DNA of 64,000 bases. It comes from Clostridiaceae bacterium (GTDB lineage Bacteria; Bacillota; Clostridia; Christensenellales; CAG-138). Positions 46,280 to 58,908 of the stretch are shown in pieces (position 1 is the first letter of the stretch; every line of letters starts with the position of its first letter). A model generated the notes under the pieces. The model saw nothing but the letters and a program-made list of their open reading frames with translations. It had not been told where the DNA came from and made no database searches. The translations under genes and the position numbers were made by a program. The DNA lies in assembly GCA_039683415.1 (NCBI GenBank), contig JBDKRL010000008.1, forward strand, positions 527-64,526, given 5' to 3'.

Positions 46280-47251
46280 ATGCTCGATCAAAAGCGAATG
46301 GTCGTACTCGGTGGGCTGCCGCAGAAGATTCACATCAAAAGCGAGAACGAAAAGAACCCCGTTCTGCTGTTTCTGCACGGAGGCCCCGGCGTCTGCAACC
46401 GTCATACGATTATGAAGGACCATGCCGACCTTGCCAAAGTATTCACCATGGTCGCCTGGGATCAGCGCGGCAGCGGCGGCTCCTACTGGGGCGCAAAACA
46501 GGAAACGCTGACCGTCGACCAACTGGTGGAGGACGCAAACGAGCTGGTTGGCTGGCTCTGCGAAACGTTCCATAAGGATAAAATCTTCATCATCGGCGGC
46601 AGCTGGGGAAGCGAGCTGGGCACTTATCTTGTCCACCGGCACCCGGAAAAGATCGCGGCATATGTGGGCTTTGGCCAGGTCGTCAACGGCGCGAAAAACG
46701 AGGAGATCAGCTTCGATTTCGCCATGGCGGAAGCCGTCAAGGCGCGGGATGAAAAATCGATCGAACTTCTCAAAAAAGTCGGTCCGCCGGTGATGGGCGT
46801 TTACAAGGGCGGCTTCGACGGCATGATGGCGCAGCGCCGGGTCATGATGAAATACGGCGGCTATTCGCAGAGCGCGAAAAAGCGCAGTTACTTCCGCTCG
46901 TTCGTCATCCCGGTCGTACTCTCCGGCGAATACAGCCTCAAGGACTTGATCGGTCTTGTAAAAGGCTACAAATACGTGCTGACCCATATGTGGAACGCCG
47001 TGGGCGAAACAGATTTCCCCAACACCTGCACCAAATTCGACGCGCCGTATTTTGTGTTTGACGGCGTTTTGGATCAAAACACGCCCGCGTCCCTCGTGCA
47101 GGACTGGTTCGACACCATTACCGCTCCGCAGAAGGAACTGATCTGGTTTGAACAGTCCGGCCATAACCCGATGGGCGACGAGCCCGCGCGGTTCAAGAGC
47201 CTGCTCATCGACCGCCTGCTGGCGGTACGGGATAAGGAGAAAAACGTATGA
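46280..47251 (+). CDS. Alpha/beta hydrolase (proline iminopeptidase-like)
   Basis: FLHGGPG, DQRGSG, GGSWG nucleophile elbow and SGH motifs. Confidence 0.88.
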   Translation: MLDQKRMVVLGGLPQKIHIKSENEKNPVLLFLHGGPGVCNRHTIMKDHADLAKVFTMVAWDQRGSGGSYWGAKQETLTVDQLVEDANELVGWLCETFHKDKIFIIGGSWGSELGTYLVHRHPEKIAAYVGFGQVVNGAKNEEISFDFAMAEAVKARDEKSIELLKKVGPPVMGVYKGGFDGMMAQRRVMMKYGGYSQSAKKRSYFRSFVIPVVLSGEYSLKDLIGLVKGYKYVLTHMWNAVGETDFPNTCTKFDAPYFVFDGVLDQNTPASLVQDWFDTITAPQKELIWFEQSGHNPMGDEPARFKSLLIDRLLAVRDKEKNV

Positions 47252-48642
47252 ATGAGACCGCCGCGCAGGCCATTCCCCGCACACGATTTCCCGAAAAGCT
47301 CGGATTCTGCACCTTTTCGACCGCAAGCAACGTCGTCTATCAGTTCAAGAGCATGTACTACCTGTTCTTCCTGACCAACGTGATGATGCTGGACGTCCGC
47401 ATCGCGGGGCTGATCCTCACGATCGGCACGATCTGGGACGCGGTCAACGACCCGCTGATCGGTTTTTGGGCGGTCAACCACAAGTTCAAGAACGGCGAAC
47501 GCGTCCGCCCGCTGGCCATCTGGTTTGCCGTGCCATGGGCGATAACGGTCGTGCTGCTGTTTACAAATTTCGGGCTGAGCCATACGCTCTCCATCGCGCT
47601 CGCGCTTGTGATCTACCTGCTCTTTGAGCTGTTCAACACGTTTGTGGGTATCCCCTACAACAGCATGGGGAGCTTAGCCACCAACCTCGACGCCGACCGC
47701 CGCTCGATCAACGTCTTCCGCAACCTTGGCGGGGCGCTTGGCGGGGGTATCGGTGCGGTGGCCTGCCTGCCGCTGCTCAATCTATTTGGCGCGCTGGATG
47801 CAGAAGGTAACCTGATCGCCGCCACCAGCTCGCGCGGGTTCATGCTGACCGCCTGCGTGATGGGCGCGGTCTGCGTCATCGGGTGTCTTGTGCATTTCTT
47901 TACGACTAAAGAGCGCGTTAAGCCCATTGGCGACGACGACGAGAAACTCTCGGTCAAAACCGTGTTCACGATGCTGTTCAAGTGCAAGTCGTGGGTGCTG
48001 AACATGTTCTATATCATTTGCTATGGCGTGATCAACCTGCTGTTGATGAGCTGTCTTACGTATTACGCAACCTATATCATCGGCAGTACGAAAGCGGCAA
48101 CCCCCATTCAGGCGGCATACCTCGCGGCTTCCATCGGCTCGTCGTTCCTCGTTTCGGCAGTCGACCGCGCCATCGGCAGAAAGAAGACGATGCTCGTCGC
48201 CGCCGTACTCTTTATCCTCGGCAAGATCTGGTTTGTTCTCGATCCCTTATCGATCGGCGCGCTCTATGTCAACGCCATCACGGTGGGCATCGCGGTGACC
48301 ATTACGTTTGTCATGTTCAACACCAACCGCAACAATATCGTGGATCTCATCGAGTGGCAGTCCGGTCGCCGCCTCGACAGCCTCGTTTCCACGGCGGACA
48401 ACCTCGCCAGCAAACTCGCCGTCGCGGGCGCTACCTGGCTCGTGACCGCCGCGCTTTCCAGCAACGGTTTTGATGCAAAGCTATCCGTTCAGCCGGAAGC
48501 CGCCATCAACACGATCAACGCGGCGCTCGGCTGGGTGCCGATGCTCGTTGCGGTCGTGATGGTCGTCGTCATCCTCTTTTTGAATATCGACAAGGAAACA
48601 AAGAAGATGCTGGAGGAGAAGGCGGCGCAGGCTGCGCAGTAA
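47248..48642 (+). CDS. MFS transporter, glycoside-pentoside-hexuronide family
   Basis: IWDAVNDPLIG and IPYNSM motifs, about 12 TM segments; coupled to the hydrolase. Confidence 0.88.
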   Translation: MNETAAQAIPRTRFPEKLGFCTFSTASNVVYQFKSMYYLFFLTNVMMLDVRIAGLILTIGTIWDAVNDPLIGFWAVNHKFKNGERVRPLAIWFAVPWAITVVLLFTNFGLSHTLSIALALVIYLLFELFNTFVGIPYNSMGSLATNLDADRRSINVFRNLGGALGGGIGAVACLPLLNLFGALDAEGNLIAATSSRGFMLTACVMGAVCVIGCLVHFFTTKERVKPIGDDDEKLSVKTVFTMLFKCKSWVLNMFYIICYGVINLLLMSCLTYYATYIIGSTKAATPIQAAYLAASIGSSFLVSAVDRAIGRKKTMLVAAVLFILGKIWFVLDPLSIGALYVNAITVGIAVTITFVMFNTNRNNIVDLIEWQSGRRLDSLVSTADNLASKLAVAGATWLVTAALSSNGFDAKLSVQPEAAINTINAALGWVPMLVAVVMVVVILFLNIDKETKKMLEEKAAQAAQ

Positions 48643-48743: not shown

Positions 48744-48772
48744 TTGACAATTGCCGCTAAAAACGGTATATT
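48744..48772 (+). promoter_or_regulatory. sigmaA promoter of the gcv operon
   Basis: TTGACA-N17-TATATT. Confidence 0.8.
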
Positions 48773-48794
48773 GATCCCGGACAATTTCATATTC

Positions 48795-49032
48795 GGATGA
48801 CGGCATCGGGAGAGACCGCAATAGTCGCGGCGCCGAAGGGGAATGCGCAACAAACTCTCAGGCAAAAGGACCGATACCCGACGAAGCTTCGGAAAGCCGC
48901 TTCCACTATTTTATGAGTAGAAGGGGCACCGACGAGGCAATTCCGCGTTTAAGGCACAGCAGGGAAACGCGGGAGAATCTTTCAGGTTCAGATACGGGGC
49001 GCGCGAAGAGTATTCGCGCGTCTCGTTTTTTG
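48795..49032 (+). ncRNA. Tandem glycine riboswitch with a terminator expression platform
   Basis: GGAGAGACC...CGCCGAAGG...CTCTCAGG; AAAAGGAC linker; GGAAAG...CACCGA...TTTCAGG; then stem GGGGCGCGCGAA/TTCGCGCGTCTC with a T-run. Confidence 0.9.
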
Positions 49033-49065
49033 TGTTCAAAAATTTATTTACGGAGGAAAAACAAT

Positions 49066-49443
49066 ATGAATCTGCCGAACGACCGCAAGTACACGGCTTC
49101 CCACGAGTGGCTCATGGACATGGGGGGCGGCATCTACCGCGTCGGCTTGAGCGACTATGCACAGCACGCGCTGGGCGACATCGTATTCATCGATCTGCCC
49201 GCCGTAGGCGACAAGCTGACCAAGGACGTTTCCCTTGGGGACGTCGAGAGCGTCAAAGCCGTTTCGGAAGTGGTCAGCCCCGTGAGCGGAACCGTTTCCG
49301 CCGTCAACGACGCGCTCTCCGGCGCGCCGGAAACGATCAACGCCGCACCTTACGAAACATGGCTGGTCGAAGTAACGGGCGCAACCGCATTTTCCGATCT
49401 GCTGGACGCCGCCGCCTATCAGGCCGTCTGCGAACAGGCATAG
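49066..49443 (+). CDS. gcvH: Glycine cleavage system H protein
   Basis: YTASHEW, GLSDYAQHALGDIVFIDLP and VESVKAVSE (lipoyl Lys). Confidence 0.97.
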   Translation: MNLPNDRKYTASHEWLMDMGGGIYRVGLSDYAQHALGDIVFIDLPAVGDKLTKDVSLGDVESVKAVSEVVSPVSGTVSAVNDALSGAPETINAAPYETWLVEVTGATAFSDLLDAAAYQAVCEQA

Positions 49444-49538: not shown

Positions 49539-50870
49539 TTGGGAGATTACCTGCCCAATACGGAAGAACAGCGGCGGGAAATGCTGAGCGCCGTCGGCGT
49601 TTCAAGCGTTGGCGAGCTGTATGCCGATATTCCCGCGTCCCTGCGGGAGAGCGCGGCAAAGGCCGCCGCGGAACTGCCCAAAGGCGTTTCGGAATTCGAA
49701 GCGCTGGAACACCTGAAAACCCTGTCCAAAAAGAACGTCGTCTACGACGCGATCTTTCGCGGCGCGGGTGCGTACTGGCACTATATCCCGCCCGTGGTGA
49801 GCCGCGTTGCCGCAAAGGAAGCGTTTGTCACCGCGTATACGCCCTACCAACCGGAGATCAGTCAGGGCATTCTGCAGACGATTTTCGAATACCAAACCAT
49901 GATTGCCGAACTCACGGGTATGGACGCTTCCAACGCTTCCGTTTACGACGGCGCGGTGGCGGCGGCGGAAGCCGCCAGCATGTGCCGCGAGCGCAACCGC
50001 AAAAAAACGCTCGTTTCGCTGGGGCTTCACCCCGAGTCGATCGAAACCGTGAACACCTATTGCTTCGGCGCGGACGAACCGGTTGAAACCCTGCCGCTGA
50101 AAAACGGCGCGGTCGATCTGACCGCGCTCAAAGCCGCGCTGGATGAAACGGTGTCCGGCGTGCTCATTCAGTCGCCCAACTTCTACGGCGTGATCGAGGA
50201 CGTTTCCGCCATTGCGGAGATCGTCCACGCGGCGGGCGCAAAGCTCGTTGTGAGCACAAACCCCATCGCCTGCGCGCTGATCAAAACGCCGGGCGAGTGC
50301 GGCGCGGACGCCGCCATTGGAGAAGGCCAGCCGCTGGGCATGCCGCTGAGCTTCGGCGGGCCGTACCTTGGGTTTATGGCCTGCAAAAAGGACATGATCC
50401 GCAAACTGCCCGGCCGTATCGTCGGCCAAACTTCGGACGCGCAAGGTCGCAGATGTTTTGTACTCACCCTGCAGGCGCGCGAGCAGCACATTCGCCGTGA
50501 AAAGGCGAGCAGCAACATCTGCTCGAATCAGGCGCTCTGCGCGCTGACCGCGGCGGCGTACTGTTCCGCCATGGGGCCGCAGGGGATAACGGAAGTTGCG
50601 CGCCAGTGTTACGACAAGGCGCATGCGCTTGCGGAAGGGCTTGGCGGCGTTAAAGGCTATCAACTGCTTTATCCAAACGCGCCATTTTTTCATGAATTCG
50701 TCACCAAAACGTCTGCTTCGGCGGAAAAAGTTCTTATCTCGCTCGCAAAAAAAGGCATTCTGGGCGGTTTGCCCGTTGACGGCGGCATCCTCTGGTGCGC
50801 CACGGAGCGTACAACGAAAGCGCAGATCGACGCGGTGATCGAGACGGCAAAGGAGGCGGCAACGAAATGA
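49539..50870 (+). CDS. gcvPA: Glycine dehydrogenase (decarboxylating) subunit 1
   Basis: YTPYQPEISQG and REQHIRREKASSNICSNQAL motifs. Confidence 0.97.
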   Translation: MGDYLPNTEEQRREMLSAVGVSSVGELYADIPASLRESAAKAAAELPKGVSEFEALEHLKTLSKKNVVYDAIFRGAGAYWHYIPPVVSRVAAKEAFVTAYTPYQPEISQGILQTIFEYQTMIAELTGMDASNASVYDGAVAAAEAASMCRERNRKKTLVSLGLHPESIETVNTYCFGADEPVETLPLKNGAVDLTALKAALDETVSGVLIQSPNFYGVIEDVSAIAEIVHAAGAKLVVSTNPIACALIKTPGECGADAAIGEGQPLGMPLSFGGPYLGFMACKKDMIRKLPGRIVGQTSDAQGRRCFVLTLQAREQHIRREKASSNICSNQALCALTAAAYCSAMGPQGITEVARQCYDKAHALAEGLGGVKGYQLLYPNAPFFHEFVTKTSASAEKVLISLAKKGILGGLPVDGGILWCATERTTKAQIDAVIETAKEAATK

Positions 50871-52318
50871 AACTCGCATTTGAACGCAGCGTTCCCGGAC
50901 GCGTTGGCTGCCGCATTCCCGCTTCGGGCGTGAAGAGCGCCGCTCTGCCGGAGTCGCTGCTCCGTAAATCTCCACTGCACTTACCGGAGCTTTCGGAAAC
51001 GGATGTCAGCCGCCATTATTCCGAGCTGGAACAGCAGGTGTACGGCGTCAACGACGGATTCTACCCGCTCGGCTCCTGCACCATGAAATACAACCCCGCC
51101 GTCAACGAGCAAGCGGCGTCGCTGGAAGGCTTTACCGCCGTCCATCCCCTTCAGCCGGTGGAAACTGTGCAGGGGAGTTTGGAAGCGCTGGCGGAAACGG
51201 CGGAACTGCTCAGCAAGCTCGTCGGCATGGACGAGATGACCTTCCAGCCCGCGGCGGGCGCGCACGGCGAACTGCTGGGCTTACTGCTCATCAAGGCGTA
51301 TCATCAGGCGCGTGGAAACGACGGCCGCAGGCAGATTATCGTGCCGGATTCCGCGCACGGAACCAACCCCGCCTCGGCGGCGATGGCGGGCTTTACGGTG
51401 GTCAACATCCCCTCCGCGCCGGATGGAACGGTCGATCTCGACGCGCTGAAAAACGCGGTCAGTACGGAGACGGCGGGGCTGATGCTCACCAACCCCAATA
51501 CGCTGGGCGTATTCGACCGTAACATCCTGGAAATCACCAGAATCGTCCACGACGCGGGCGGCCTCTGCTATTACGACGGCGCGAACATGAACGCCATCAT
51601 GGGCTCCGCACGTCCCGGTGACATGGGCTTCGACGTGGTGCACCTCAACCTGCATAAGACGTTCTCTACACCGCATGGCGGCGGCGGCCCCGGCGCGGGC
51701 GCGGTGGGCTGCAAAACAATCCTCGCGCCGTACCTGCCGAACGGTCTGCCGGTCAAGCTGGCGGACGGAACGTTTGGTCTGCGCAACTCCGAACAGAGCG
51801 TCGGGCGCATGAAAGCGTTTTACGGCAATTTCCTCGTTGTCATCCGCGCGCTGTGCTATATCAAGACGCTCGGCGGAGAAGGACTCAAGCAGGCCAGCGA
51901 AAACGCGGTGCTCAACGCCAACTACCTGCGCGTGCTCTTAAAGGACAGCTGCCCGGTTGCCACGGCGGGATTCTGCATGCACGAGTTCGTGCTCTCGCTG
52001 GAACAACTCAAAAAGGAAACGGGCGTTTCCGCCATGGACGCGGCAAAGACCATGATCGACTTTGGCATGCACCCGCCGACGATGTATTTTCCGCTCATCG
52101 TGCACGAAGCGCTCATGTTTGAGCCCACGGAGACCGAGGGGAAGGAAACGCTGGATGCTGCGGCGGAAGCGGTCAAGGCGATCCTCGCGCTGGCGAAAAC
52201 CGATCCGGAGAAACTGCACGGCGCGCCGCACTCGACCCCCATCGGTCGGCCGGACGAAGTTGGCGCGGCAAGGAATCCTATGTTACGGTACGAATTTTCG
52301 GAGGGCGAAACAAAATGA
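50867..52318 (+). CDS. gcvPB: Glycine dehydrogenase (decarboxylating) subunit 2
   Basis: LGSCTMKYNP and HLNLHKTFSTPHGGGGPG (PLP Lys). Confidence 0.97.
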   Translation: MKLAFERSVPGRVGCRIPASGVKSAALPESLLRKSPLHLPELSETDVSRHYSELEQQVYGVNDGFYPLGSCTMKYNPAVNEQAASLEGFTAVHPLQPVETVQGSLEALAETAELLSKLVGMDEMTFQPAAGAHGELLGLLLIKAYHQARGNDGRRQIIVPDSAHGTNPASAAMAGFTVVNIPSAPDGTVDLDALKNAVSTETAGLMLTNPNTLGVFDRNILEITRIVHDAGGLCYYDGANMNAIMGSARPGDMGFDVVHLNLHKTFSTPHGGGGPGAGAVGCKTILAPYLPNGLPVKLADGTFGLRNSEQSVGRMKAFYGNFLVVIRALCYIKTLGGEGLKQASENAVLNANYLRVLLKDSCPVATAGFCMHEFVLSLEQLKKETGVSAMDAAKTMIDFGMHPPTMYFPLIVHEALMFEPTETEGKETLDAAAEAVKAILALAKTDPEKLHGAPHSTPIGRPDEVGAARNPMLRYEFSEGETK

Positions 52319-54975
52319 GCGAAGCAAGCGAATTAAAACGCACGGTATTATACGACCGCCATGTGGCTGCGGGCGCGACCATGGTGGACTTTGGCGGCTG
52401 GGAGATGCCGATCCAGTACCCTTCCGGTATTGTGGAAGAGCATCTGGCCACCCGTTCCGGCTGCGGCGTTTTTGACGTTTCCCACATGGGGCGCTTCCGC
52501 ATTACGGGCAGGGAAGCAAAGGCGTTTCTGCAGCATGTGCTTAGCAGCAACGTTTCCGCGCTGGACATGGAGCAGGCGCAGTACGCGCTGATTCCCAACG
52601 CGTCCGGCGGCGCGGTGGACGACGCATACCTCTACCGTTTTTATGAGGACGCCTACATCCTCGTGGTCAACGCGTCCAACGCCCAGAAGGATTGGGCGCA
52701 CCTGACAAGCGCGATCAAAGGATTTGACGCGCAGATTGAAGATAAAAGCGAAGATGTCGCGCTCATCTCCGTGCAGGGGCCGAAATCGAAGGAAATCCTG
52801 AGCGAAATGGCGGACGGCGAGAAGCTCACCGAACCGGTGAAAAACGCGCTGGGCACGGCCAAGCTCTGCGGGCGCACGGCGCACCTTTCCAAGACCGGCT
52901 ACACGGGCGAACCCATCGGTTACGAGGTGTTCGTTCTGCGCGAAGACGCGGCGTTCCTCTGGGACGAGCTGCTCAAACGCGGCGCAAAGCCCATCGGCCT
53001 CGGCGCGCGCGATACGCTGCGTCTGGAAGCGGGTCTGCCGCTCTACGGCCACGAACTGGGAACGGATAAGGACGGAAACGAAATCCCGATCTTCGCCATC
53101 TCGCTGGCGCGCTTTGCCGTGAGCTTTTCGGAAGAGAAGCGCTCTATGATCGGACGTAAACCGCTGGAAGAACAGTTTGCGGCGAGCAACCGCATCCTCA
53201 ACCGGGATTTTTCCGACCTTTCGGTTCTGCCGCGCCGGGTGCGTCCCATCGCGCTGACCGGCAGGGGCGTGCTGCGCGGGGGATTTCCCGTCTACAAAAA
53301 CGGAAAAGAGATCGGCTACGTGACCAGCGGTACCATGGTGCCGCGTTATACGGTAGAAAATCAGGGCAGCCTGCTCGAAAAATTCACCGACCAGAAGGCG
53401 CTGCGCTCCATCGGTCTGGCGCTGCTGGATTCGGACGTGCTCACGGACGACGTGGTGGAGGTCGATATCCGCGGCAGCCGCGTTTCCGCCGTAGTGGTCA
53501 ACTACCATATGCGCGGGGACGCGCCGCCTTATGCGCGGCCCATCGTCTGCGACGTTCCGGAAGAACCCAAGGCCGAACCTTCCGCCAATCTTCCTCTCAG
53601 CGCGCTGACGCTGCTTAGGAAGGGGCTAAAAAATCACGTCTGGCGGCAGGAGCAGTGCGTCAACCTGATTCCGTCGGAAATGACCGCTTCCCGCGCGGTG
53701 CGCCTGCTATCAAGCAGCGATCCTTCGTTCCGGTACGCCGAGCATAAACAGGTCGCCTCATTCTACGATCACGACGTGTTCTACTATCAGGGCACAAAGT
53801 TTATCGACGAAGTCGAGCGCGCGCTGGTTGCCGAAATGCGCAAGTACCTTGGCTGCGCGGAGGTGGAAACGCGCGTGGTCAGCGGGCAGATGTCCAACGC
53901 CACGGTGTTTTCCGCGCTGATGGACTACGTCAACCGCACCGACCGCAAGCGCACGCCGCGCAGGCTCGGTTACATTCTCAACAACCACATCCGCAACGGC
54001 GGGCATTTGAGCGCGCAGCCCATGGGCGCTCTCCACGACTTTGTCGCCGTCGATCCGCAAACCGAGCGCTCGGCGGTGGTCAATTTCCCCGTCTGCCGGG
54101 ACAACGTATTCAAAATTGACGTGGAGCAAACCAAGAAGGTCGTCGAACAGTACCGCCCGGAGTTCATCGTGTTCGGCAAATCCATGGTGCTCCATAAGGA
54201 GCCCGTGCGCGAGATTCGCGCGTTTGTGGACGAGATGAAGATTCCGACCACGATCATGTACGACATGGCGCATGTGCTCGGCCTTGTCGGCCCGCATTTC
54301 CAAAAGCCGTTCGAGGAAGGCGCGGAGATCGTCACCGGCTCGACGCATAAAACGTTCTTTGGCCCCCAGCGCGGCGTGATCGGCGTGAACTACACCGAGG
54401 ACGAACTCAAATACGACCTCTGGAAAGCGATTCAGACGCGCGCGTTCCCGGGCGCTGTGAGCAACCACCATCTCGGCACGATGCTGGGATTGCTGATGGC
54501 GGCGTACGAAATGAATGCATTCGGCGACGCGTACCAGAAAGCCGTCGTCGAAAACGCCAAGTCGTTTGCCGCGAGCCTCAAAGCGGCGGGGCTGGATGTT
54601 GCGGGTGATCCCGCCATCGGCTACACCGAGACGCATCAGGTCGTCGTCCGCGTGGGCTACGGCCAGGGGCCGGAGATTGCCGAACGGCTGGAAGAGAACA
54701 ACATTGTCGTCAACTATCAGGCGACGCCCGAGGAGGAGGGCTTTACCGCGAGCGGCGCGCTGCGCCTCGGTGTTTCCGAGATGACGCGCTTCGGCTTTGG
54801 CAAGGCGGAGTTTGAACGGCTCGCGCACCTGATGGCGGACTGCGTGCTGCGCAATAAACCCGTTGCCGGGGAAGTGACAAAGCTCCGTGCGGGCTATACA
54901 ACGCTTGGATACTGCTTTAACGACGCGGAGGTTACCCAGGCGCTCGACGCGCTCAGCGCACAGAGCGGCATGTAA
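52315..54975 (+). CDS. gcvT: Fused aminomethyltransferase GcvT + serine hydroxymethyltransferase (GlyA)
   Basis: N-part has FDVSHMG, TGYTGE and GLGARDTLRLEAG; C-part has NLIPSE, GGHLS, YDMAHVLG and GSTHKTFFGPQRG; one uninterrupted 886-aa frame. Confidence 0.93.
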   Translation: MSEASELKRTVLYDRHVAAGATMVDFGGWEMPIQYPSGIVEEHLATRSGCGVFDVSHMGRFRITGREAKAFLQHVLSSNVSALDMEQAQYALIPNASGGAVDDAYLYRFYEDAYILVVNASNAQKDWAHLTSAIKGFDAQIEDKSEDVALISVQGPKSKEILSEMADGEKLTEPVKNALGTAKLCGRTAHLSKTGYTGEPIGYEVFVLREDAAFLWDELLKRGAKPIGLGARDTLRLEAGLPLYGHELGTDKDGNEIPIFAISLARFAVSFSEEKRSMIGRKPLEEQFAASNRILNRDFSDLSVLPRRVRPIALTGRGVLRGGFPVYKNGKEIGYVTSGTMVPRYTVENQGSLLEKFTDQKALRSIGLALLDSDVLTDDVVEVDIRGSRVSAVVVNYHMRGDAPPYARPIVCDVPEEPKAEPSANLPLSALTLLRKGLKNHVWRQEQCVNLIPSEMTASRAVRLLSSSDPSFRYAEHKQVASFYDHDVFYYQGTKFIDEVERALVAEMRKYLGCAEVETRVVSGQMSNATVFSALMDYVNRTDRKRTPRRLGYILNNHIRNGGHLSAQPMGALHDFVAVDPQTERSAVVNFPVCRDNVFKIDVEQTKKVVEQYRPEFIVFGKSMVLHKEPVREIRAFVDEMKIPTTIMYDMAHVLGLVGPHFQKPFEEGAEIVTGSTHKTFFGPQRGVIGVNYTEDELKYDLWKAIQTRAFPGAVSNHHLGTMLGLLMAAYEMNAFGDAYQKAVVENAKSFAASLKAAGLDVAGDPAIGYTETHQVVVRVGYGQGPEIAERLEENNIVVNYQATPEEEGFTASGALRLGVSEMTRFGFGKAEFERLAHLMADCVLRNKPVAGEVTKLRAGYTTLGYCFNDAEVTQALDALSAQSGM

Positions 54976-54997: not shown

Positions 54998-55034
54998 CCG
55001 CCCGCCGGAACGAAAAATTCGGCGGGCGGGTTTT
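54998..55034 (+). terminator. Terminator after gcvT-glyA
   Basis: CCGCCCGCCGGA...TTCGGCGGGCGGGTTTT. Confidence 0.8.
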
Positions 55035-55169
55035 CGCTCGAATCGATGGATTTTATATTGTTGCTAAAGCGTTGAAAAGCACGCGGGAACGTTCTACAGT
55101 ATAGGAAGGGCAACAAGTCTTATTAAAATGTTGATTCAGACAAATTCTGCAAACGGAGGGCTGATCGAT

Positions 55170-56225
55170 ATGATTCCGGCCTATATGCACGCGCTGGTCA
55201 AGGAAACCGCTGGAAAAGGGCTGACGCTCAAGCAGGTGAAAACGCCCGTACCGGGCATTGGGGAAGTGCTCATCAAGATCCACAAAACCGCCATCTGCGG
55301 AACGGACGTCCATATTTACAACTGGGACGCATGGAGCCAGAAGACGATTCTGCCGCCCATGACGATCGGCCATGAGTACGTTGGCGAAATCGCGGTGCTC
55401 GGCCCCGGCGTGGAGGACTATCACGTCGGCCAGATCGTCACCGGCGAAGGGCACATCGTCTGCGGGCACTGCCGCAACTGCCGCGCGGGCAACGGACACT
55501 GGTGCAAGTTTACCAAGGGCGTGGGCGTCAACCGCGATGGCGCGTTTGCCGAATACCTTTGCATTCCGGAAACGAACGTCATCGCCGTGCCGGAGACCAC
55601 ACCGGAGGAAATCGTCGCGTTCTACGACGCGTACGGCAACGCCTGCCATACGGCGACCATGTTCGACGTCACCGGCGAGGACGTGCTCATCACCGGCGCG
55701 GGGCCGATCGGCATGATGGCGGTCGGTATCTGCCGCCAGAACGGGGCAAGGCGCATCGTCGTGACGGACGTCAACGACTACCGCCTCGACATCGCTAAAA
55801 AGATGGGAGCCTCCGCAACCGTCAACCTCAAAACCCAGTCCGTCGAGGAAACGATGAAGCAGCTGCATATCGTCGAGGGCTTCGACGTCGGCTGCGAGAT
55901 GAGCGGCAACGGCGCGGCGCTCAACCAGATGCTCAAGCTCATGCGAAACGGCGGCAAAGTGGCGCTGCTGGGCATCGCGGGGCCGGGCACAGTGATCGAC
56001 TGGAACGACGTGATCTTTAAAGGATTGACATTGCAGGGCATATACGGACGCAAGATGTACGAAACCTGGTACAAGATGATGGCCATGGTCGAAGCGGGGC
56101 TCGACCTTTCACCGGTGCTGACCCACCGCTATCCCTATACGGAGTTTGAGGAAGCGTTTTCCGTGATGAACAGCGGCCAGAGCGGCAAGGTTGTTCTGGA
56201 CTGGACGCAGAAGGAGGGCGCATGA
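55170..56225 (+). CDS. tdh: L-threonine 3-dehydrogenase
   Basis: [22 protein letters not shown] and [14 protein letters not shown] motifs; upstream of kbl. Confidence 0.95.
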
Positions 56226-57406
56226 CAAAACTGGCATATGAACTCTACCGCACCACGCTGGAGGAAATCCGCGCGGCGGGCACCTATAAGCAGGAGCGCA
56301 TCATCACGACCCCGCAGGGCGCGCGCGTGGACACCACGACGTCGAAACGGGTACTCAACATGTGCGCCAACAACTATCTGGGGCTGGCGGACAATCCGGA
56401 AATCGAAACGGCGGCAAAACAGGCGCTCGATACCTGGGGCTACGGGCTTTCTTCCGTGCGGTTCATCTGCGGCACGCAGGGCATCCATAAGGAACTGGAG
56501 CGCAGGATTGCTCGCTTCCTCGGCATGGAGGATGCCATTCTCTACTCCTCCTGCTTCGACGCCAACGGCGGCCTGTTTGAAACGCTTTTAACCGATCAGG
56601 ACGCGGTGATTTCGGACGAACTCAACCATGCGAGCATCATCGACGGCGTTCGCCTCTGCAAGGCCGCGCGGTTCCGCTATAAGAACAACGACATGGTGAG
56701 CCTCCGCGAACAGCTGGAAGCGGCAAAGTCCTGCCGCATCAAGCTCATCGCCACCGACGGGGTGTTCTCGATGGACGGCTACATCGCCAACCTCAAGGGC
56801 ATCTGCGACCTTGCGGACGAGTACGGCGCGCTGGTCATGGTGGACGACAGCCATGCCGTCGGCTTCATGGGCGAGCGCGGGCGCGGCACGCCGGAATACT
56901 GCGGCGTTCAGGGGCGCGTGGATATCGTCACCGGCACGCTCGGCAAGGCGCTGGGCGGGGCAAGCGGCGGCTACACGGCGGCAAGAAAAGAGATTGTCGA
57001 CCTGCTGCGGCAGCGTTCGCGGCCATATTTATTCTCCAACACCGTGGCTCCCGTGATCTGCGGGGCGAGCCTGAAAGTGCTGGACTTACTGGAAGGTTCC
57101 ACAGCGCTGCGCGACAAACTGCAGGAGAACACGCGGTATTTCCGCGAGAACCTCGGCAAGCTTGGTTTCGACGTGCTGCCCGGCGAACACCCGATCGTGC
57201 CGGTGATGCTGTACGAGGCAAAAACCGCGCAGGAGTTCGCCGCGCGGATGCTCGAAAAGGGCGTCTACGTCGTGGGCTTTTGCTATCCCGTGGTGCCGAT
57301 GGGCAAAGCGCGCATCCGCACGCAGGTTTCCGCTGCGCACAGCAAGGAAGACCTCGATTTTGCCGTGTCGTGCTTTGCGGACGTCAAGCGCGAGATGGGG
57401 CTGTAA
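56222..57406 (+). CDS. kbl: Glycine C-acetyltransferase (2-amino-3-ketobutyrate CoA ligase)
   Basis: [37 protein letters not shown] and ARIRTQVSA motifs. Confidence 0.97.
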
Positions 57407-57436: not shown

Positions 57437-57467
57437 AAAAAAAGGCTGCCGTCAAGGCAGTCTTTTT
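57437..57467. terminator. Bidirectional terminator between kbl and the convergent gene
   Basis: AAAAAAAGGCTGCC-GTCAA-GGCAGTCTTTTT. Confidence 0.75.
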
Positions 57468-57489
57468 GATGATACCGCGTGAAAAAACG

Positions 57490-58908
57490 CTACTCGCTCT
57501 TCTGCATCCGGAAGACGAATCCTGCGGTAAACAGAAACCAGACCCAGATGACGTTGAGCGAAATCTCAACAAACAGGAACGCTTCCATCATGGTTTCCGG
57601 CAGGGCAAACAGCAGCAGCGCGGGCATCAGCCGGACGCCGAGCGAGTCCGCATCCTTGAGGTTGGTAAACGAGAGCTTCGCGCTGGCAATGGCGAGCAGT
57701 ACGAGAAACGCCAGAATGACGACAACTCCGGGAATGCCGAACGAAACGAGCGACGCAAGATAGGTATTATGAAAATTGCCAACCGGCGAGCCTTTTGGGA
57801 AATATTGCGCCATGATACTGCTGGAAAGCAGCGGCGTTGCCCCCGTGAGCAGCAGATCCGGGTGCTCCGAAAGCCCCTTGAGCGTGCCGAGCCAGATGTC
57901 CGTTCTTCCGCTGAACGTATCGGCGTTGGTCATTCCCCGGGAAGCGGCTTCTTCGGCTGCCGTTTCTGCCGTTTTTGCGGAAGCAGCGGTTTCCGCGGCG
58001 GTTTCGGCGGATGCGACATACCCGTTGTAAGCCGCGCGGACCAGACTGATGCCGATGACAAACGCGCAAAGAATCAACAGAGCCGCAACGGCACTAATGA
58101 GCACGCGCGCAAACGAATGCTTGATCCGGGTAAAAGACACGTTGGCGAAAAGGAAAATTTCCAGCGCCACGCCGATGCTTGCGCTGAAGATGCCGGTGCG
58201 GCTGTCCGTCAGCGCCATGGTGCAGTAAAACAGCGCTATGCCGAAAATCAGAAGGACTTTTAAGAACCATTTTCTGGTGCGCGTAAAGAGATAGCCGGAC
58301 AAAAGGATCGCGGTGCCGCAGATGGGAGCTACGGTGTTGGGGTGAACGAGCAGATACAGCCTGCCTTCCGAACTGATACCGAACTTGCCCAGATTCGTGA
58401 TTGCTTCGGGTACAGCGCACCCCGACAAAACGACGTACAGCCCTGCGGCGCAGAGCGCGGCGGCGCAGACGAGCATGACAACGGCGAACACGGAGAGCGC
58501 CTTTTTCAGCGTTTCTTTATCAAACGCGTAGGGAAGCGAAAAGCAGAGGAACGTGCTGGCGCACACGCAGTAAAACCAGGGGCTTGTCAGGGCGTTCTTC
58601 AGCCGCCAGTTGTTGAGGATCAAACCGACCATCATCCAAACGAACAGCGCCGCCATGATGCGGACTTCCGCATACTTAAAATACGGACGCGTATAGAGCA
58701 GCAGCGCAAGTACGCCCATGGACGCGGGAAAGAGCACGAACGCAAGCAGCATATTGCTGTATAGGGGCGCAAAAAAGTGATATACGCTGATAACGATGCA
58801 GCAGACGAACGCAATGGAAGCCGGGAGCTGCCAGGAAAGAAGGCCGATTTTTGCGTCGGCGGTATTACCATTTGGGAGGGATTGCGGAGCAGAAGTCGTT
58901 TTTTTCAT
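57490..58908 (-). CDS. O-antigen ligase (Wzy_C) family polytopic membrane protein
   Basis: Many TM segments; HPNT, TDSRTG, SGRTDIW and FHNTYL..LVSFGIPG motifs. Confidence 0.85.
   Translation of the reverse strand: MKKTTSAPQSLPNGNTADAKIGLLSWQLPASIAFVCCIVISVYHFFAPLYSNMLLAFVLFPASMGVLALLLYTRPYFKYAEVRIMAALFVWMMVGLILNNWRLKNALTSPWFYCVCASTFLCFSLPYAFDKETLKKALSVFAVVMLVCAAALCAAGLYVVLSGCAVPEAITNLGKFGISSEGRLYLLVHPNTVAPICGTAILLSGYLFTRTRKWFLKVLLIFGIALFYCTMALTDSRTGIFSASIGVALEIFLFANVSFTRIKHSFARVLISAVAALLILCAFVIGISLVRAAYNGYVASAETAAETAASAKTAETAAEEAASRGMTNADTFSGRTDIWLGTLKGLSEHPDLLLTGATPLLSSSIMAQYFPKGSPVGNFHNTYLASLVSFGIPGVVVILAFLVLLAIASAKLSFTNLKDADSLGVRLMPALLLFALPETMMEAFLFVEISLNVIWVWFLFTAGFVFRMQKSE

What the first reader, a model, noticed from the sequence alone, without database searches (positions are those of the whole stretch)
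52315..54975. GcvT-SHMT fusion at the end of a glycine-riboswitch operon
Both catalytic signatures are intact in one polypeptide: GcvT covers about aa 1-410, and SHMT carries the PLP Lys in STHK. Established: GcvT produces 5,10-methylene-THF from glycine, and SHMT uses it with a second glycine to make serine (or the reverse). Inference: substrate channelling of a labile C1-folate. This is relevant to the reductive glycine pathway and to C1 engineering. I do not know of a biochemical characterisation, but could not check.
Basis: partly seen in the sequence, partly recalled or inferred. Interest (0 to 1): 0.58.

Follow-up and report, generated by a model that had tools for sequence, protein, structure and literature searches.

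The report
Natural GcvT–SHMT fusion enzyme
One gene at the end of a glycine-switched operon joins the T-protein of the glycine cleavage system to an intact, archaeal-type serine hydroxymethyltransferase; the fusion is real and widespread, databases call it only "GcvT", I found no study of it, and it probably turns two glycines into one serine while recycling its folate on one protein.

Summary
The ORF 52315-54975 (+) encodes 886 aa. Residues ~1-400 are a complete GcvT and residues ~432-886 are an SHMT-fold PLP domain with the Schiff-base lysine K679 in GSTHKTFF.

It closes the unit promoter, glycine riboswitch, gcvH, gcvPA, gcvPB, fusion, terminator. tdh and kbl follow.

- The SHMT half is not GlyA. 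It belongs to a separate clade nearest the M. jannaschii enzyme, and a canonical glyA lies elsewhere in the genome.
- The fused T-domain is the genome's only T-protein.
- The fusion is an old, conserved family. The best 80 of at least 599 species-genome hits, from about 12 bacterial phyla, all have the GcvT part directly upstream, 75 in one frame. It also occurs in Woesearchaeota.
- In the window's own family, carriers never have a canonical gcvT, and 5 of 15 have no canonical glyA. So both halves appear to work.
- AlphaFold gives one compact body (pTM 0.89).

Folate channelling remains untested. Seven literature searches found no description. This scan has already noted the same fusion in at least 53 other genomes. 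Verdict: a new variant of a known kind, of moderate interest.

The parts
48744..48772 (+). Sigma-70-type promoter-like site (TTGACA, 17 nt spacer, TATATT) of the gcv unit
   Evidence: 11 of 12 consensus matches. This is a consensus match only.
48797..48883 (+). Glycine riboswitch aptamer
   Evidence: RF00504, 64.8 bits against a gathering score of 32, E 3.6e-11. A longer match to RF03166 at 48793-48939 stays below its gathering score (69.6 against 110).
48994..49032 (+). Intrinsic terminator of the riboswitch expression platform
   Evidence: 14-bp GC-rich stem followed by a T-run, lying between the aptamer and the gcvH start.
49066..49443 (+). gcvH (H-protein). The real start is the ATG at 49066, behind GGAGG
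   Evidence: GCV_H 116.7 bits. NF002270 scores 140.9 against 117. The start was read. The 176-aa ORF includes the leader.
49539..50870 (+). gcvPA (P-protein subunit 1)
   Evidence: GDC-P 420 bits.
50795..52318 (+). gcvPB (P-protein subunit 2). The start codon is uncertain, because the listed GTG overlaps gcvPA
   Evidence: GcvP2_C 83 bits and GDC-P 32 bits.
52315..53514 (+). GcvT (aminomethyltransferase) module of the fusion, aa 1-400
   Evidence: Pfam and NCBIfam hits. It is 37% identical to E. coli GcvT, with D97, the LVVN Asn and GLGARDTLRLEAG kept. D102, D103, N119, R232 and R236 are invariant in 56 fusions. Foldseek matches 1yx2/1wos with TMt 0.86-0.89. It is the only GCV_T hit in the genome.
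53515..53607 (+). Interdomain linker, aa 401-431. It begins with the conserved (E/D)APPYARPI motif, followed by a variable stretch
   Evidence: A4 consensus, with P405 nearly invariant. AlphaFold pLDDT is 74-90 here.
53608..54975 (+). Archaeal-type SHMT-like PLP module, aa 432-886, plus the stop codon. K679 is at nt 54349-54351
   Evidence: PF00464 130.8 bits. Best solved relatives are 4uqv/4bhd (E 9e-52; TMt 0.89). The E. coli equivalents S35, Y55, E57, Y64, Y65, H126, D200, H203, H228, K229 and R363 are kept; T226 is Ser and N347 is Gln.
54998..55029 (+). Intrinsic terminator that ends the riboswitch-controlled unit
   Evidence: 12-bp stem with 10 GC pairs, followed by a T-run.
55128..56225 (+). 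tdh (L-threonine 3-dehydrogenase), a neighbouring unit that makes glycine
   Evidence: NF003808, 522.6 bits against 380. There is a promoter-like site at 55072-55100. The synteny is kept in six related loci.
56222..57406 (+). kbl (glycine C-acetyltransferase), a neighbouring unit that makes glycine
   Evidence: NF005394, 656.9 bits against 460. It follows the fusion and tdh in L011 and L013-L016.

Best explanation
The gene encodes a bifunctional enzyme. Its N-terminal half is the T-protein of the glycine cleavage system. It takes the aminomethyl group from lipoyl-H-protein, releases ammonia and forms 5,10-methylene-THF. Its C-terminal half is a PLP-dependent serine hydroxymethyltransferase of a distinct, archaeal-type clade. 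It condenses that methylene-THF with a second glycine to give serine and free THF. Together with GcvH, GcvPA/PB and a lipoamide dehydrogenase, the net reaction is 2 glycine + NAD+ -> serine + CO2 + NH3 + NADH, with the folate cycle closed on one protein. SHMT is an obligate dimer, so the protein is presumably a dimer through its SHMT half. High glycine opens the riboswitch (terminator read-through) and induces the unit. Tdh and Kbl next door supply glycine from threonine, and serine dehydratase elsewhere in the genome can carry serine on to pyruvate. What is shown: the architecture, the intact residues, the regulation elements, the distribution, and the replacement pattern in relatives. What is inferred: the activities, the direction, the dimer, and any direct hand-over of folate between the two sites.
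For: Both halves pass their family tests, and every catalytic residue checked is kept, here and in 55 of 56 diverse fusions.

The fused T-domain is the only GCV_T in this genome. In a sample of 81 genomes of the same family, none of the 15 carriers has a canonical gcvT, while 48 of 66 non-carriers do. So the fusion serves as the T-protein.

5 of 15 carriers have no canonical glyA found, against 3 of 66 non-carriers. Two of the five are 94-96% complete. One of them (G311) has a stand-alone 481-aa copy of this SHMT-like domain as its only SHMT-family gene and no GCV_T at all. So the domain can evidently serve as the cell's SHMT.

The fusion is conserved. All 80 best loci, from about 12 bacterial phyla, have the GcvT part directly upstream, 75 in one frame. 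Woesearchaeota members also exist. gcvH lies within the flanks in 38 of 80 loci.

A glycine riboswitch lies upstream in 10 of 11 Clostridia loci, and also in a Pirellulales and a Thermoleophilia locus.

AlphaFold on 56 sequences gives mean pLDDT 92.8 and pTM 0.89 for the whole chain, which implies a defined interdomain packing.

Serine dehydratase alpha domains are present at C6:363262 and C24:12319.
Against: No activity has been measured for any member.

The SHMT-like half scores below NCBI's GlyA cut-off. It has Gln where canonical and M. jannaschii SHMT have the pterin-binding Asn (E. coli N347), and this is a family-wide signature in 54 of 56 sequences. Its folate handling may therefore differ.

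This genome and most carriers also keep a canonical glyA, so the fused SHMT is not needed for housekeeping here.

One lineage (P0137/P0276) has lost the PLP lysine and several other active-site residues yet keeps the domain. This shows that the domain can persist for a non-catalytic reason.

The counts across relatives are not independent, and some of the genomes are incomplete.

I could not inspect the model coordinates, so the distance and path between the two folate sites are unknown.
Confidence: 0.7

Rival explanations
1. Only the T-protein half is catalytic. The SHMT-like half would be a scaffold that dimerises or stabilises the T-protein, or an amino-acid-sensing regulatory domain, and would not make serine.
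For: The P0137/P0276 lineage keeps the domain although E57, Y64, H126, H203 and K229 (E. coli numbering) are all replaced. The folate-binding Asn is Gln throughout the family. A canonical glyA is present in this genome.
Against: 55 of 56 fusions keep the full PLP and acid-base set. Relatives 94-96% complete have this domain as their only SHMT-family gene. The domain also exists free-standing (G311; P0132, P0136 and P0172).
Confidence: 0.1
2. The SHMT-like half is a folate-independent aldolase or transaldolase acting on threonine or allo-threonine. It would produce glycine that the fused T-protein system then degrades, as a second threonine-to-glycine route beside Tdh/Kbl.
For: tdh and kbl lie directly downstream, and this is conserved in Christensenellales loci. 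The second-best solved relative by sequence is an L-threonine transaldolase (7k34, 100 bits). SHMTs are known to have threonine aldolase side activity (established knowledge).
Against: The fluorothreonine transaldolase model scores 152 bits against a cut-off of 650. The residues needed for the folate-dependent reaction (E57, Y64, Y65) are nearly invariant. The partner conserved across about 12 phyla is the folate enzyme GcvT, not threonine genes, which are missing from most other loci.
Confidence: 0.08
3. The same enzyme runs mainly in the other direction in vivo: serine + CO2 + NH3 + NADH -> 2 glycine, or as part of a reductive glycine route.
For: Both reactions are reversible (established knowledge). 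Many carriers are anaerobes of Desulfobacterota and Syntrophobacterales, groups in which reductive glycine metabolism has been discussed.
Against: In this genome and in 10 of 11 Clostridia loci the gene is behind a glycine riboswitch with a terminator, the arrangement known for glycine-induced gcv operons. Glycine-producing tdh/kbl lie adjacent. In the assimilatory reductive pathway, T-protein and SHMT both consume methylene-THF, so a fusion offers no hand-over. Glycine reductase was not found, but the control for that search did not ring, so this is inconclusive.
Confidence: 0.1
4. The long ORF is an artefact: two adjacent genes, gcvT and an SHMT paralogue, merged by an assembly or sequencing error.
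For: 5 of 80 related loci show the two halves in different frames or cut.
Against: 75 of 80 loci from independent assemblies, including a closed 3.58-Mb chromosome (L015), keep one frame. Hundreds of 881-884-aa proteins exist at 68-96% identity. The linker motif is conserved, and the whole chain is predicted confidently.
Confidence: 0.01

Closest known systems
Free-standing glycine cleavage T-protein (GcvT/AMT, EC 2.1.2.10; e.g. B. subtilis 1YX2, T. maritima 1WOO/1WOS, E. coli 1VLO/3A8I)
   Same: The N-terminal 400 aa share the same fold (TMt 0.86-0.89). They are 37% identical to E. coli GcvT, with the catalytic Asp and folate-site motifs kept. The gene sits in a gcvH-gcvP operon behind a glycine riboswitch, and its product is the genome's only T-protein.
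   Different: It carries two insertions in the C-terminal barrel region and a 486-aa C-terminal extension made of a linker and an SHMT-like domain. Known T-proteins are monomers of about 360 aa.
Methanocaldococcus jannaschii SHMT (PDB 4BHD/4UQV), the archaeal tetrahydromethanopterin-using SHMT
   Same: It is the closest solved relative of the C-terminal half (E 9e-52; TMt 0.89, about 30% identity). The two share the GSTHKTFFGPQ(G/R)G and SNHHL motifs that differ from bacterial GlyA.
   Different: The M. jannaschii enzyme is free-standing and uses H4MPT (PMC3697235). The fused clade sits in bacteria that use THF, is joined to a THF-type T-protein, has NYQ where M. jannaschii has NKN, and has extra insertions.
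Bacterial GlyA (EC 2.1.2.1; E. coli 1DFO, G. stearothermophilus 1KKJ)
   Same: Same fold, and the same PLP-binding and acid-base residues.
   Different: It is only 25-26% identical, and below the NCBIfam GlyA cut-off (249.8 against 335). N347 is Gln, and GPRGG is GPQRG. A true GlyA (560 bits) is encoded elsewhere in this genome.
Bifunctional folate enzymes that pass a folate between two sites, such as DHFR-TS of protozoa and formiminotransferase-cyclodeaminase (from my own knowledge, not tested here)
   Same: Two consecutive folate-dependent steps sit on one polypeptide, which is the logic proposed here.
   Different: There is no sequence or fold relation, and channelling is demonstrated for those enzymes but not for this one.
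Plant mitochondrial glycine decarboxylase plus SHMT (photorespiration)
   Same: It has the same net chemistry, 2 glycine -> serine + CO2 + NH3 + NADH.
   Different: There the T-protein and SHMT are separate proteins, and as far as I recall no physical channelling was found. Here they are covalently joined.

Membership tests
Glycine cleavage T-protein (GcvT, EC 2.1.2.10) | GCV_T folate-binding domain plus C-terminal barrel, scoring above the curated equivalog cut-offs | tested here: met
   PF01571 268 bits and PF08669 42 bits. TIGR00528 scores 274.4 against 235.85, and NF001567 scores 331.9 against 300. TMt is 0.86-0.89 to 1yx2/1wos.
Glycine cleavage T-protein (GcvT, EC 2.1.2.10) | Catalytic Asp (E. 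coli D97) and conserved folate-site residues | tested here: met
   D102-D103, N119 and R232/R236 align with E. coli and are invariant in 56 fusions.
Glycine cleavage T-protein (GcvT, EC 2.1.2.10) | Encoded with gcvH and gcvP, and acts as the organism's T-protein | tested here: met
   The operon is gcvH-gcvPA-gcvPB-fusion. It is the only GCV_T hit in the genome. None of 15 family carriers has a canonical gcvT, against 48 of 66 non-carriers.
Glycine cleavage T-protein (GcvT, EC 2.1.2.10) | Aminomethyl transfer from lipoyl-H-protein to THF | not testable with these tools
   This needs an enzyme assay.
Serine hydroxymethyltransferase superfamily (PF00464, fold-type I PLP) | SHMT domain above the Pfam cut-off, and the SHMT fold | tested here: met
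   130.8 bits against 27. TMt is 0.89 to 4bhd/4uqv and 0.88 to 1dfo.
Serine hydroxymethyltransferase superfamily (PF00464, fold-type I PLP) | Schiff-base Lys plus the PLP and acid-base residues (E. coli Y55, E57, Y65, H126, D200, H203, H228, K229, R363) | tested here: met
   All are present in P0001. They are invariant or kept in at least 55 of 56 fusions.
Serine hydroxymethyltransferase superfamily (PF00464, fold-type I PLP) | Pterin-binding Asn (E. coli N347) | tested here: not met
   It is replaced by Gln802 (NYQ instead of NKN). Gln is found in 54 of 56 fusions. The effect on folate binding is unknown.
Serine hydroxymethyltransferase superfamily (PF00464, fold-type I PLP) | Can serve as the only SHMT of a cell | tested here: inconclusive
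   No canonical glyA was found in 5 of 15 carrier genomes of the family, two of them 94-96% complete. This is suggestive, but it rests on draft genomes.
Canonical bacterial GlyA (NCBIfam NF000586) | Score above the curated cut-off of 335 bits | tested here: not met
   It scores 249.8 bits and is 25-26% identical to the genome's own GlyA and E. coli GlyA. In the tree it falls in a separate clade with archaeal-type proteins.
L-threonine transaldolase (fluorothreonine transaldolase, TIGR04506; ObiH) | Score above the curated cut-off of 650 bits | tested here: not met
   It scores 152.2 bits. 7k34 is only the second-best solved relative (100 bits against 180).
Glycine riboswitch (RF00504) | Aptamer above the gathering score, upstream of glycine-catabolic genes, with an expression platform | tested here: met
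   64.8 bits against 32. A terminator lies at 48994-49026, before gcvH. Homologous loci carry one or two aptamers.

The most novel reading that the evidence does not exclude
The fusion is a rigid dimeric machine that keeps one (polyglutamylated) folate captive. The pterin would shuttle between the T-site and the SHMT-site without entering the cellular pool. Glycine would then be converted to serine independently of, and insulated from, the rest of one-carbon metabolism. The family-wide Asn-to-Gln change and the conserved linker motif would be adaptations to this hand-over.
Probability: 0.2. Interest if true: 0.75.

Novelty: new variant of a known kind. Interest (0 to 1): 0.55.

Why it matters
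Glycine cleavage and SHMT are the two enzymes that interconvert glycine, serine and one-carbon units. They act in every domain of life, in photorespiration, and in engineered formate/CO2 assimilation.

A natural, widespread covalent fusion of the two gives a direct way to test an old question: does methylene-THF pass between them without mixing with the pool? Nature also supplies the controls:
- free-standing copies of the same SHMT clade (for example G311);
- fusion-type T-proteins without the SHMT half;
- a lineage with a dead SHMT half.

The fusion could also be a compact part for engineering glycine-to-serine flux.

Practically, thousands of these genes are labelled only "GcvT". Metabolic reconstructions therefore miss an SHMT, and in some genomes the only one.

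Tried and rejected
1. Literature. Seven full-text searches found no description of the fusion. The hits containing 'fusion' referred to Orbitrap Fusion instruments or to unrelated proteins.

2. Reverse-order SHMT-GcvT fusion reported in earlier scan notes. I searched longer relatives of the genome's canonical GlyA. The list was crowded by SHMT-RpiB-phosphatase fusions of Verrucomicrobia, and no SHMT-GcvT protein appeared in the top 120. So this is neither confirmed nor refuted here.

3. My own error. In one search the GcvH query was cut one base out of frame (49067 instead of 49066). Its 'GcvH' hits were frame-shifted DNA matches, and distant gcvH genes were missed. One search repeats the search correctly and finds gcvH in 38 of 80 loci. 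Only one search should be used for gcvH.

4. Glycine reductase (PF09338) was not found in the genome. The control genomes did not ring either, so this says nothing.

5. Threonine transaldolase reading: rejected on score and on context.

6. Assembly artefact: rejected.

7. I could not obtain the coordinates of the AlphaFold model. The distance between the two folate sites, the interface residues and the dimer were therefore not examined.


Full report
**What is in the sequence**

The frame 52315-54975 (+) is open for 886 codons. It starts with an ATG that overlaps the stop of the preceding gene as ATGA.

Pfam finds an aminomethyltransferase folate-binding domain (aa 12-252, 268 bits), its C-terminal barrel, and an SHMT domain (aa 438-839, 130.8 bits). 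NCBI's GcvT equivalog models pass their cut-offs. The GlyA model does not (249.8 bits against 335).

The PLP lysine is K679, in GSTHKTFF. The catalytic Asp pair of the T-protein is D102-D103.

**The transcription unit**

- A near-consensus promoter lies at 48744-48772.
- A glycine riboswitch aptamer lies at 48797-48883 (64.8 bits against 32).
- An intrinsic terminator at 48994-49026 serves as the expression platform.
- Then come gcvH (real start 49066), gcvPA, gcvPB and the fusion.
- A strong terminator at 54998-55029 closes the unit.
- tdh and kbl follow with a promoter-like site of their own. Together they make glycine and acetyl-CoA from threonine.

**The two halves**

The N-terminal 400 residues are 37% identical to E. 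coli GcvT. They keep D97, the LVVN asparagine and the GLGARDTLRLEAG block. This is the only GCV_T domain found in the 3.2-Mb, 93%-complete genome.

The C-terminal half is only 25-26% identical to E. coli GlyA and to the genome's own GlyA. That canonical GlyA is encoded separately at G000:C6:398576-399703 (560 bits).

The nearest solved relative is the M. jannaschii SHMT (4uqv/4bhd; E 9e-52, TMt 0.89). That enzyme uses tetrahydromethanopterin (PMC3697235).

Aligned to E. coli numbering, the domain keeps S35, Y55, E57, Y64, Y65, S97, G98, N102, G124-G125-H126-L127, D200, H203, H228, K229, F257-P258 and R363. T226 is Ser. GPRGG reads GPQRG. The pterin-binding N347 is Gln (NYQ instead of NKN).

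Across 56 full-length fusions down to 34% identity, these residues are invariant or nearly so, and Gln802 is present in 54 of 56. The catalytic signature is therefore intact, but the folate site carries a signature specific to this family.

**Distribution**

- A word-indexed search returned hundreds of 881-884-aa proteins at 68-96% identity. All carry both Pfam domains, and where a source names them the name is only 'GcvT' or 'aminomethyltransferase'.
- An exhaustive profile-free search with the SHMT-like half found 227 clusters (at 50% identity) at E below 1e-30. They include fused forms down to 35% identity. Two of these are Woesearchaeota proteins annotated as hypothetical.
- The best 80 come from Christensenellales, Oscillospiraceae, Thermoleophilia, Planctomycetota, Nitrospiraceae, Chloroflexota, Spirochaetaceae, Desulfobacterota, Syntrophobacterales, Gemmatimonadota, Acidobacteriota, Gammaproteobacteria and Armatimonadota.
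- In all 80 a GcvT domain lies directly upstream. In 75 both halves share one open frame. The other five are cut by a contig end or frameshifted.
- In a tree, the fused forms fall together in one clade, with a few short rows among them. Some of those rows are fragments (P0163 is part of the 897-aa fusion P0298); others, such as P0132 and P0136, look free-standing. The clade sits inside a group of free-standing, mostly archaeal SHMT-like proteins.
- The gene is nonetheless patchy. It was found in 3 of 300 sampled Clostridia genomes and in 15 of 81 genomes of the window's own family (11 of 50 genera).

**Context elsewhere**

Christensenellales loci keep riboswitch-gcvH-gcvPA-gcvPB-fusion-tdh-kbl. 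Oscillospiraceae have a (mostly tandem) riboswitch, then the fusion, then gcvH-gcvPA-gcvPB.

gcvH lies within the flanks in 38 of 80 loci. Many loci from other phyla, and a Woesearchaeota locus, show the gene alone.

A glycine riboswitch precedes the unit in 10 of 11 Clostridia loci tested. It also precedes the gene in a Pirellulales and a Thermoleophilia locus.

Five diverse carrier genomes all have gcvP, and four have a canonical glyA. In one the fused T-domain is the only one, and at least two have an extra canonical gcvT beside gcvP.

**Do both halves work?**

The best evidence available without a bench is the pattern of replacement in the window's own family.

None of the 15 carriers has a canonical free-standing gcvT, while 48 of the 66 non-carriers do. 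The fusion therefore stands in for the T-protein.

Five of the 15 carriers have no canonical glyA, against 3 of the 66 non-carriers. Two of the five are 94% and 96% complete.

The most telling case is G311. It has a free-standing 481-aa copy of this SHMT-like domain (65% identical), no GCV_T domain anywhere, and no other SHMT-family gene.

These genomes are related to each other and some are drafts, so I give counts rather than a test. Even so, they argue that the domain is a working SHMT.

**Shape**

AlphaFold2 on the 56-sequence alignment gives mean pLDDT 92.8 and pTM 0.89 for the whole 886-residue chain. The linker scores 74-90. Two independently tumbling domains of this size would give a much lower pTM, so a fixed packing is predicted.

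The linker begins with a conserved (E/D)APPYARPI motif. No solved structure spans both halves (TMq at most 0.44). I could not inspect the coordinates, so the geometry between the two folate sites is unknown.

**Mechanism proposed**

High glycine opens the riboswitch. P- and H-proteins decarboxylate glycine. The T-half makes methylene-THF and ammonia. The SHMT-half uses that methylene-THF and a second glycine to make serine, returning THF. Serine dehydratase, present in the genome, can then give pyruvate, and Tdh/Kbl feed threonine into the same route.

The logic of a fusion fits only this direction or its exact reverse, because only there does one half produce the folate form that the other consumes. 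In the assimilatory reductive glycine pathway both halves consume methylene-THF.

Direct hand-over of the folate is plausible but untested. I put it at about one in three. I put bifunctionality itself at about 0.7.

**Rivals**

- A non-catalytic SHMT-like half. One lineage with a degraded active site supports this, but the conservation and the sole-SHMT genomes argue against it.
- A threonine aldolase or transaldolase role. The model score and the cross-phylum context argue against it.
- Net operation towards glycine. The glycine-induced design argues against it.
- An assembly artefact. This is excluded.

**Novelty**

Both enzymes are textbook. The fusion is visible in public databases but labelled as GcvT only. 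Seven full-text searches found no paper on it.

Earlier notes of this scan describe the same fusion in at least 53 other genomes and reach the same reading. My results were obtained independently and agree.

New here are the family-level replacement counts, the G311 natural split, the Asn-to-Gln signature, the dead-domain lineage, and the whole-chain pTM.

Noticed in passing
P0137 / P0276 (889 aa; L091:7463-10132, NCBI GCA_964424705.1): One lineage of the fusion has a degraded SHMT-like active site. The PLP Lys is His (AHH instead of THK), and the equivalents of E57, Y64, H126 and H203 and the Gln at the N347 position are also replaced, while the GcvT half is intact. It looks like a pseudo-enzyme domain kept for a structural reason.
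   Followed up: partly
L093:3208-4650 (-), genome G311 (same family, 96% complete): A free-standing 481-aa copy of the fusion-type SHMT-like domain (65% identical). It is the only SHMT-family gene found in that genome, which also has no GCV_T domain. It lies beside Mrp/Nuo-type antiporter subunits and a DctP/FCD pair. It is a natural split control.
   Followed up: partly
G334:C4:265540-266253, G372:C7:646-1359, G373:C42:14640-15353 (same family): These GcvT domains score like the fused type (238-247 bits, profile positions 1-242). They sit in open frames of only 422-521 aa, in genomes with no SHMT-like gene. They may be T-proteins that lost the SHMT half.
   Followed up: no
P0303-P0418, mostly Verrucomicrobia: Hundreds of 729-780-aa proteins fuse a canonical SHMT to RpiB (PF02502) and a low-molecular-weight phosphatase domain (PF01451). 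NCBI names them only 'ribose 5-phosphate isomerase B'.
   Followed up: no
window 55128-57406 (+): tdh and kbl (threonine to glycine plus acetyl-CoA) directly follow the fusion, behind their own promoter-like site. The same order is kept in the Christensenellales loci L011 and L013-L016, so the region is a threonine-glycine-serine catabolic island.
   Followed up: partly
window 48913-49443 (+): The mechanical 176-aa ORF for gcvH starts inside the riboswitch leader. The real start is the ATG at 49066, behind GGAGG, which gives a normal 125-aa H-protein.
   Followed up: yes
window 46280-48642 (+): An alpha/beta hydrolase (323 aa) and an MFS_2 transporter (464 aa) with overlapping stop and start lie just upstream of the gcv promoter. 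No link to the glycine unit was seen.
   Followed up: no
window 57466-58263 (+): A 265-aa ORF after kbl has no NCBIfam hit. A 510-aa ORF lies on the opposite strand over the same stretch, so it is unclear which of the two is real.
   Followed up: no
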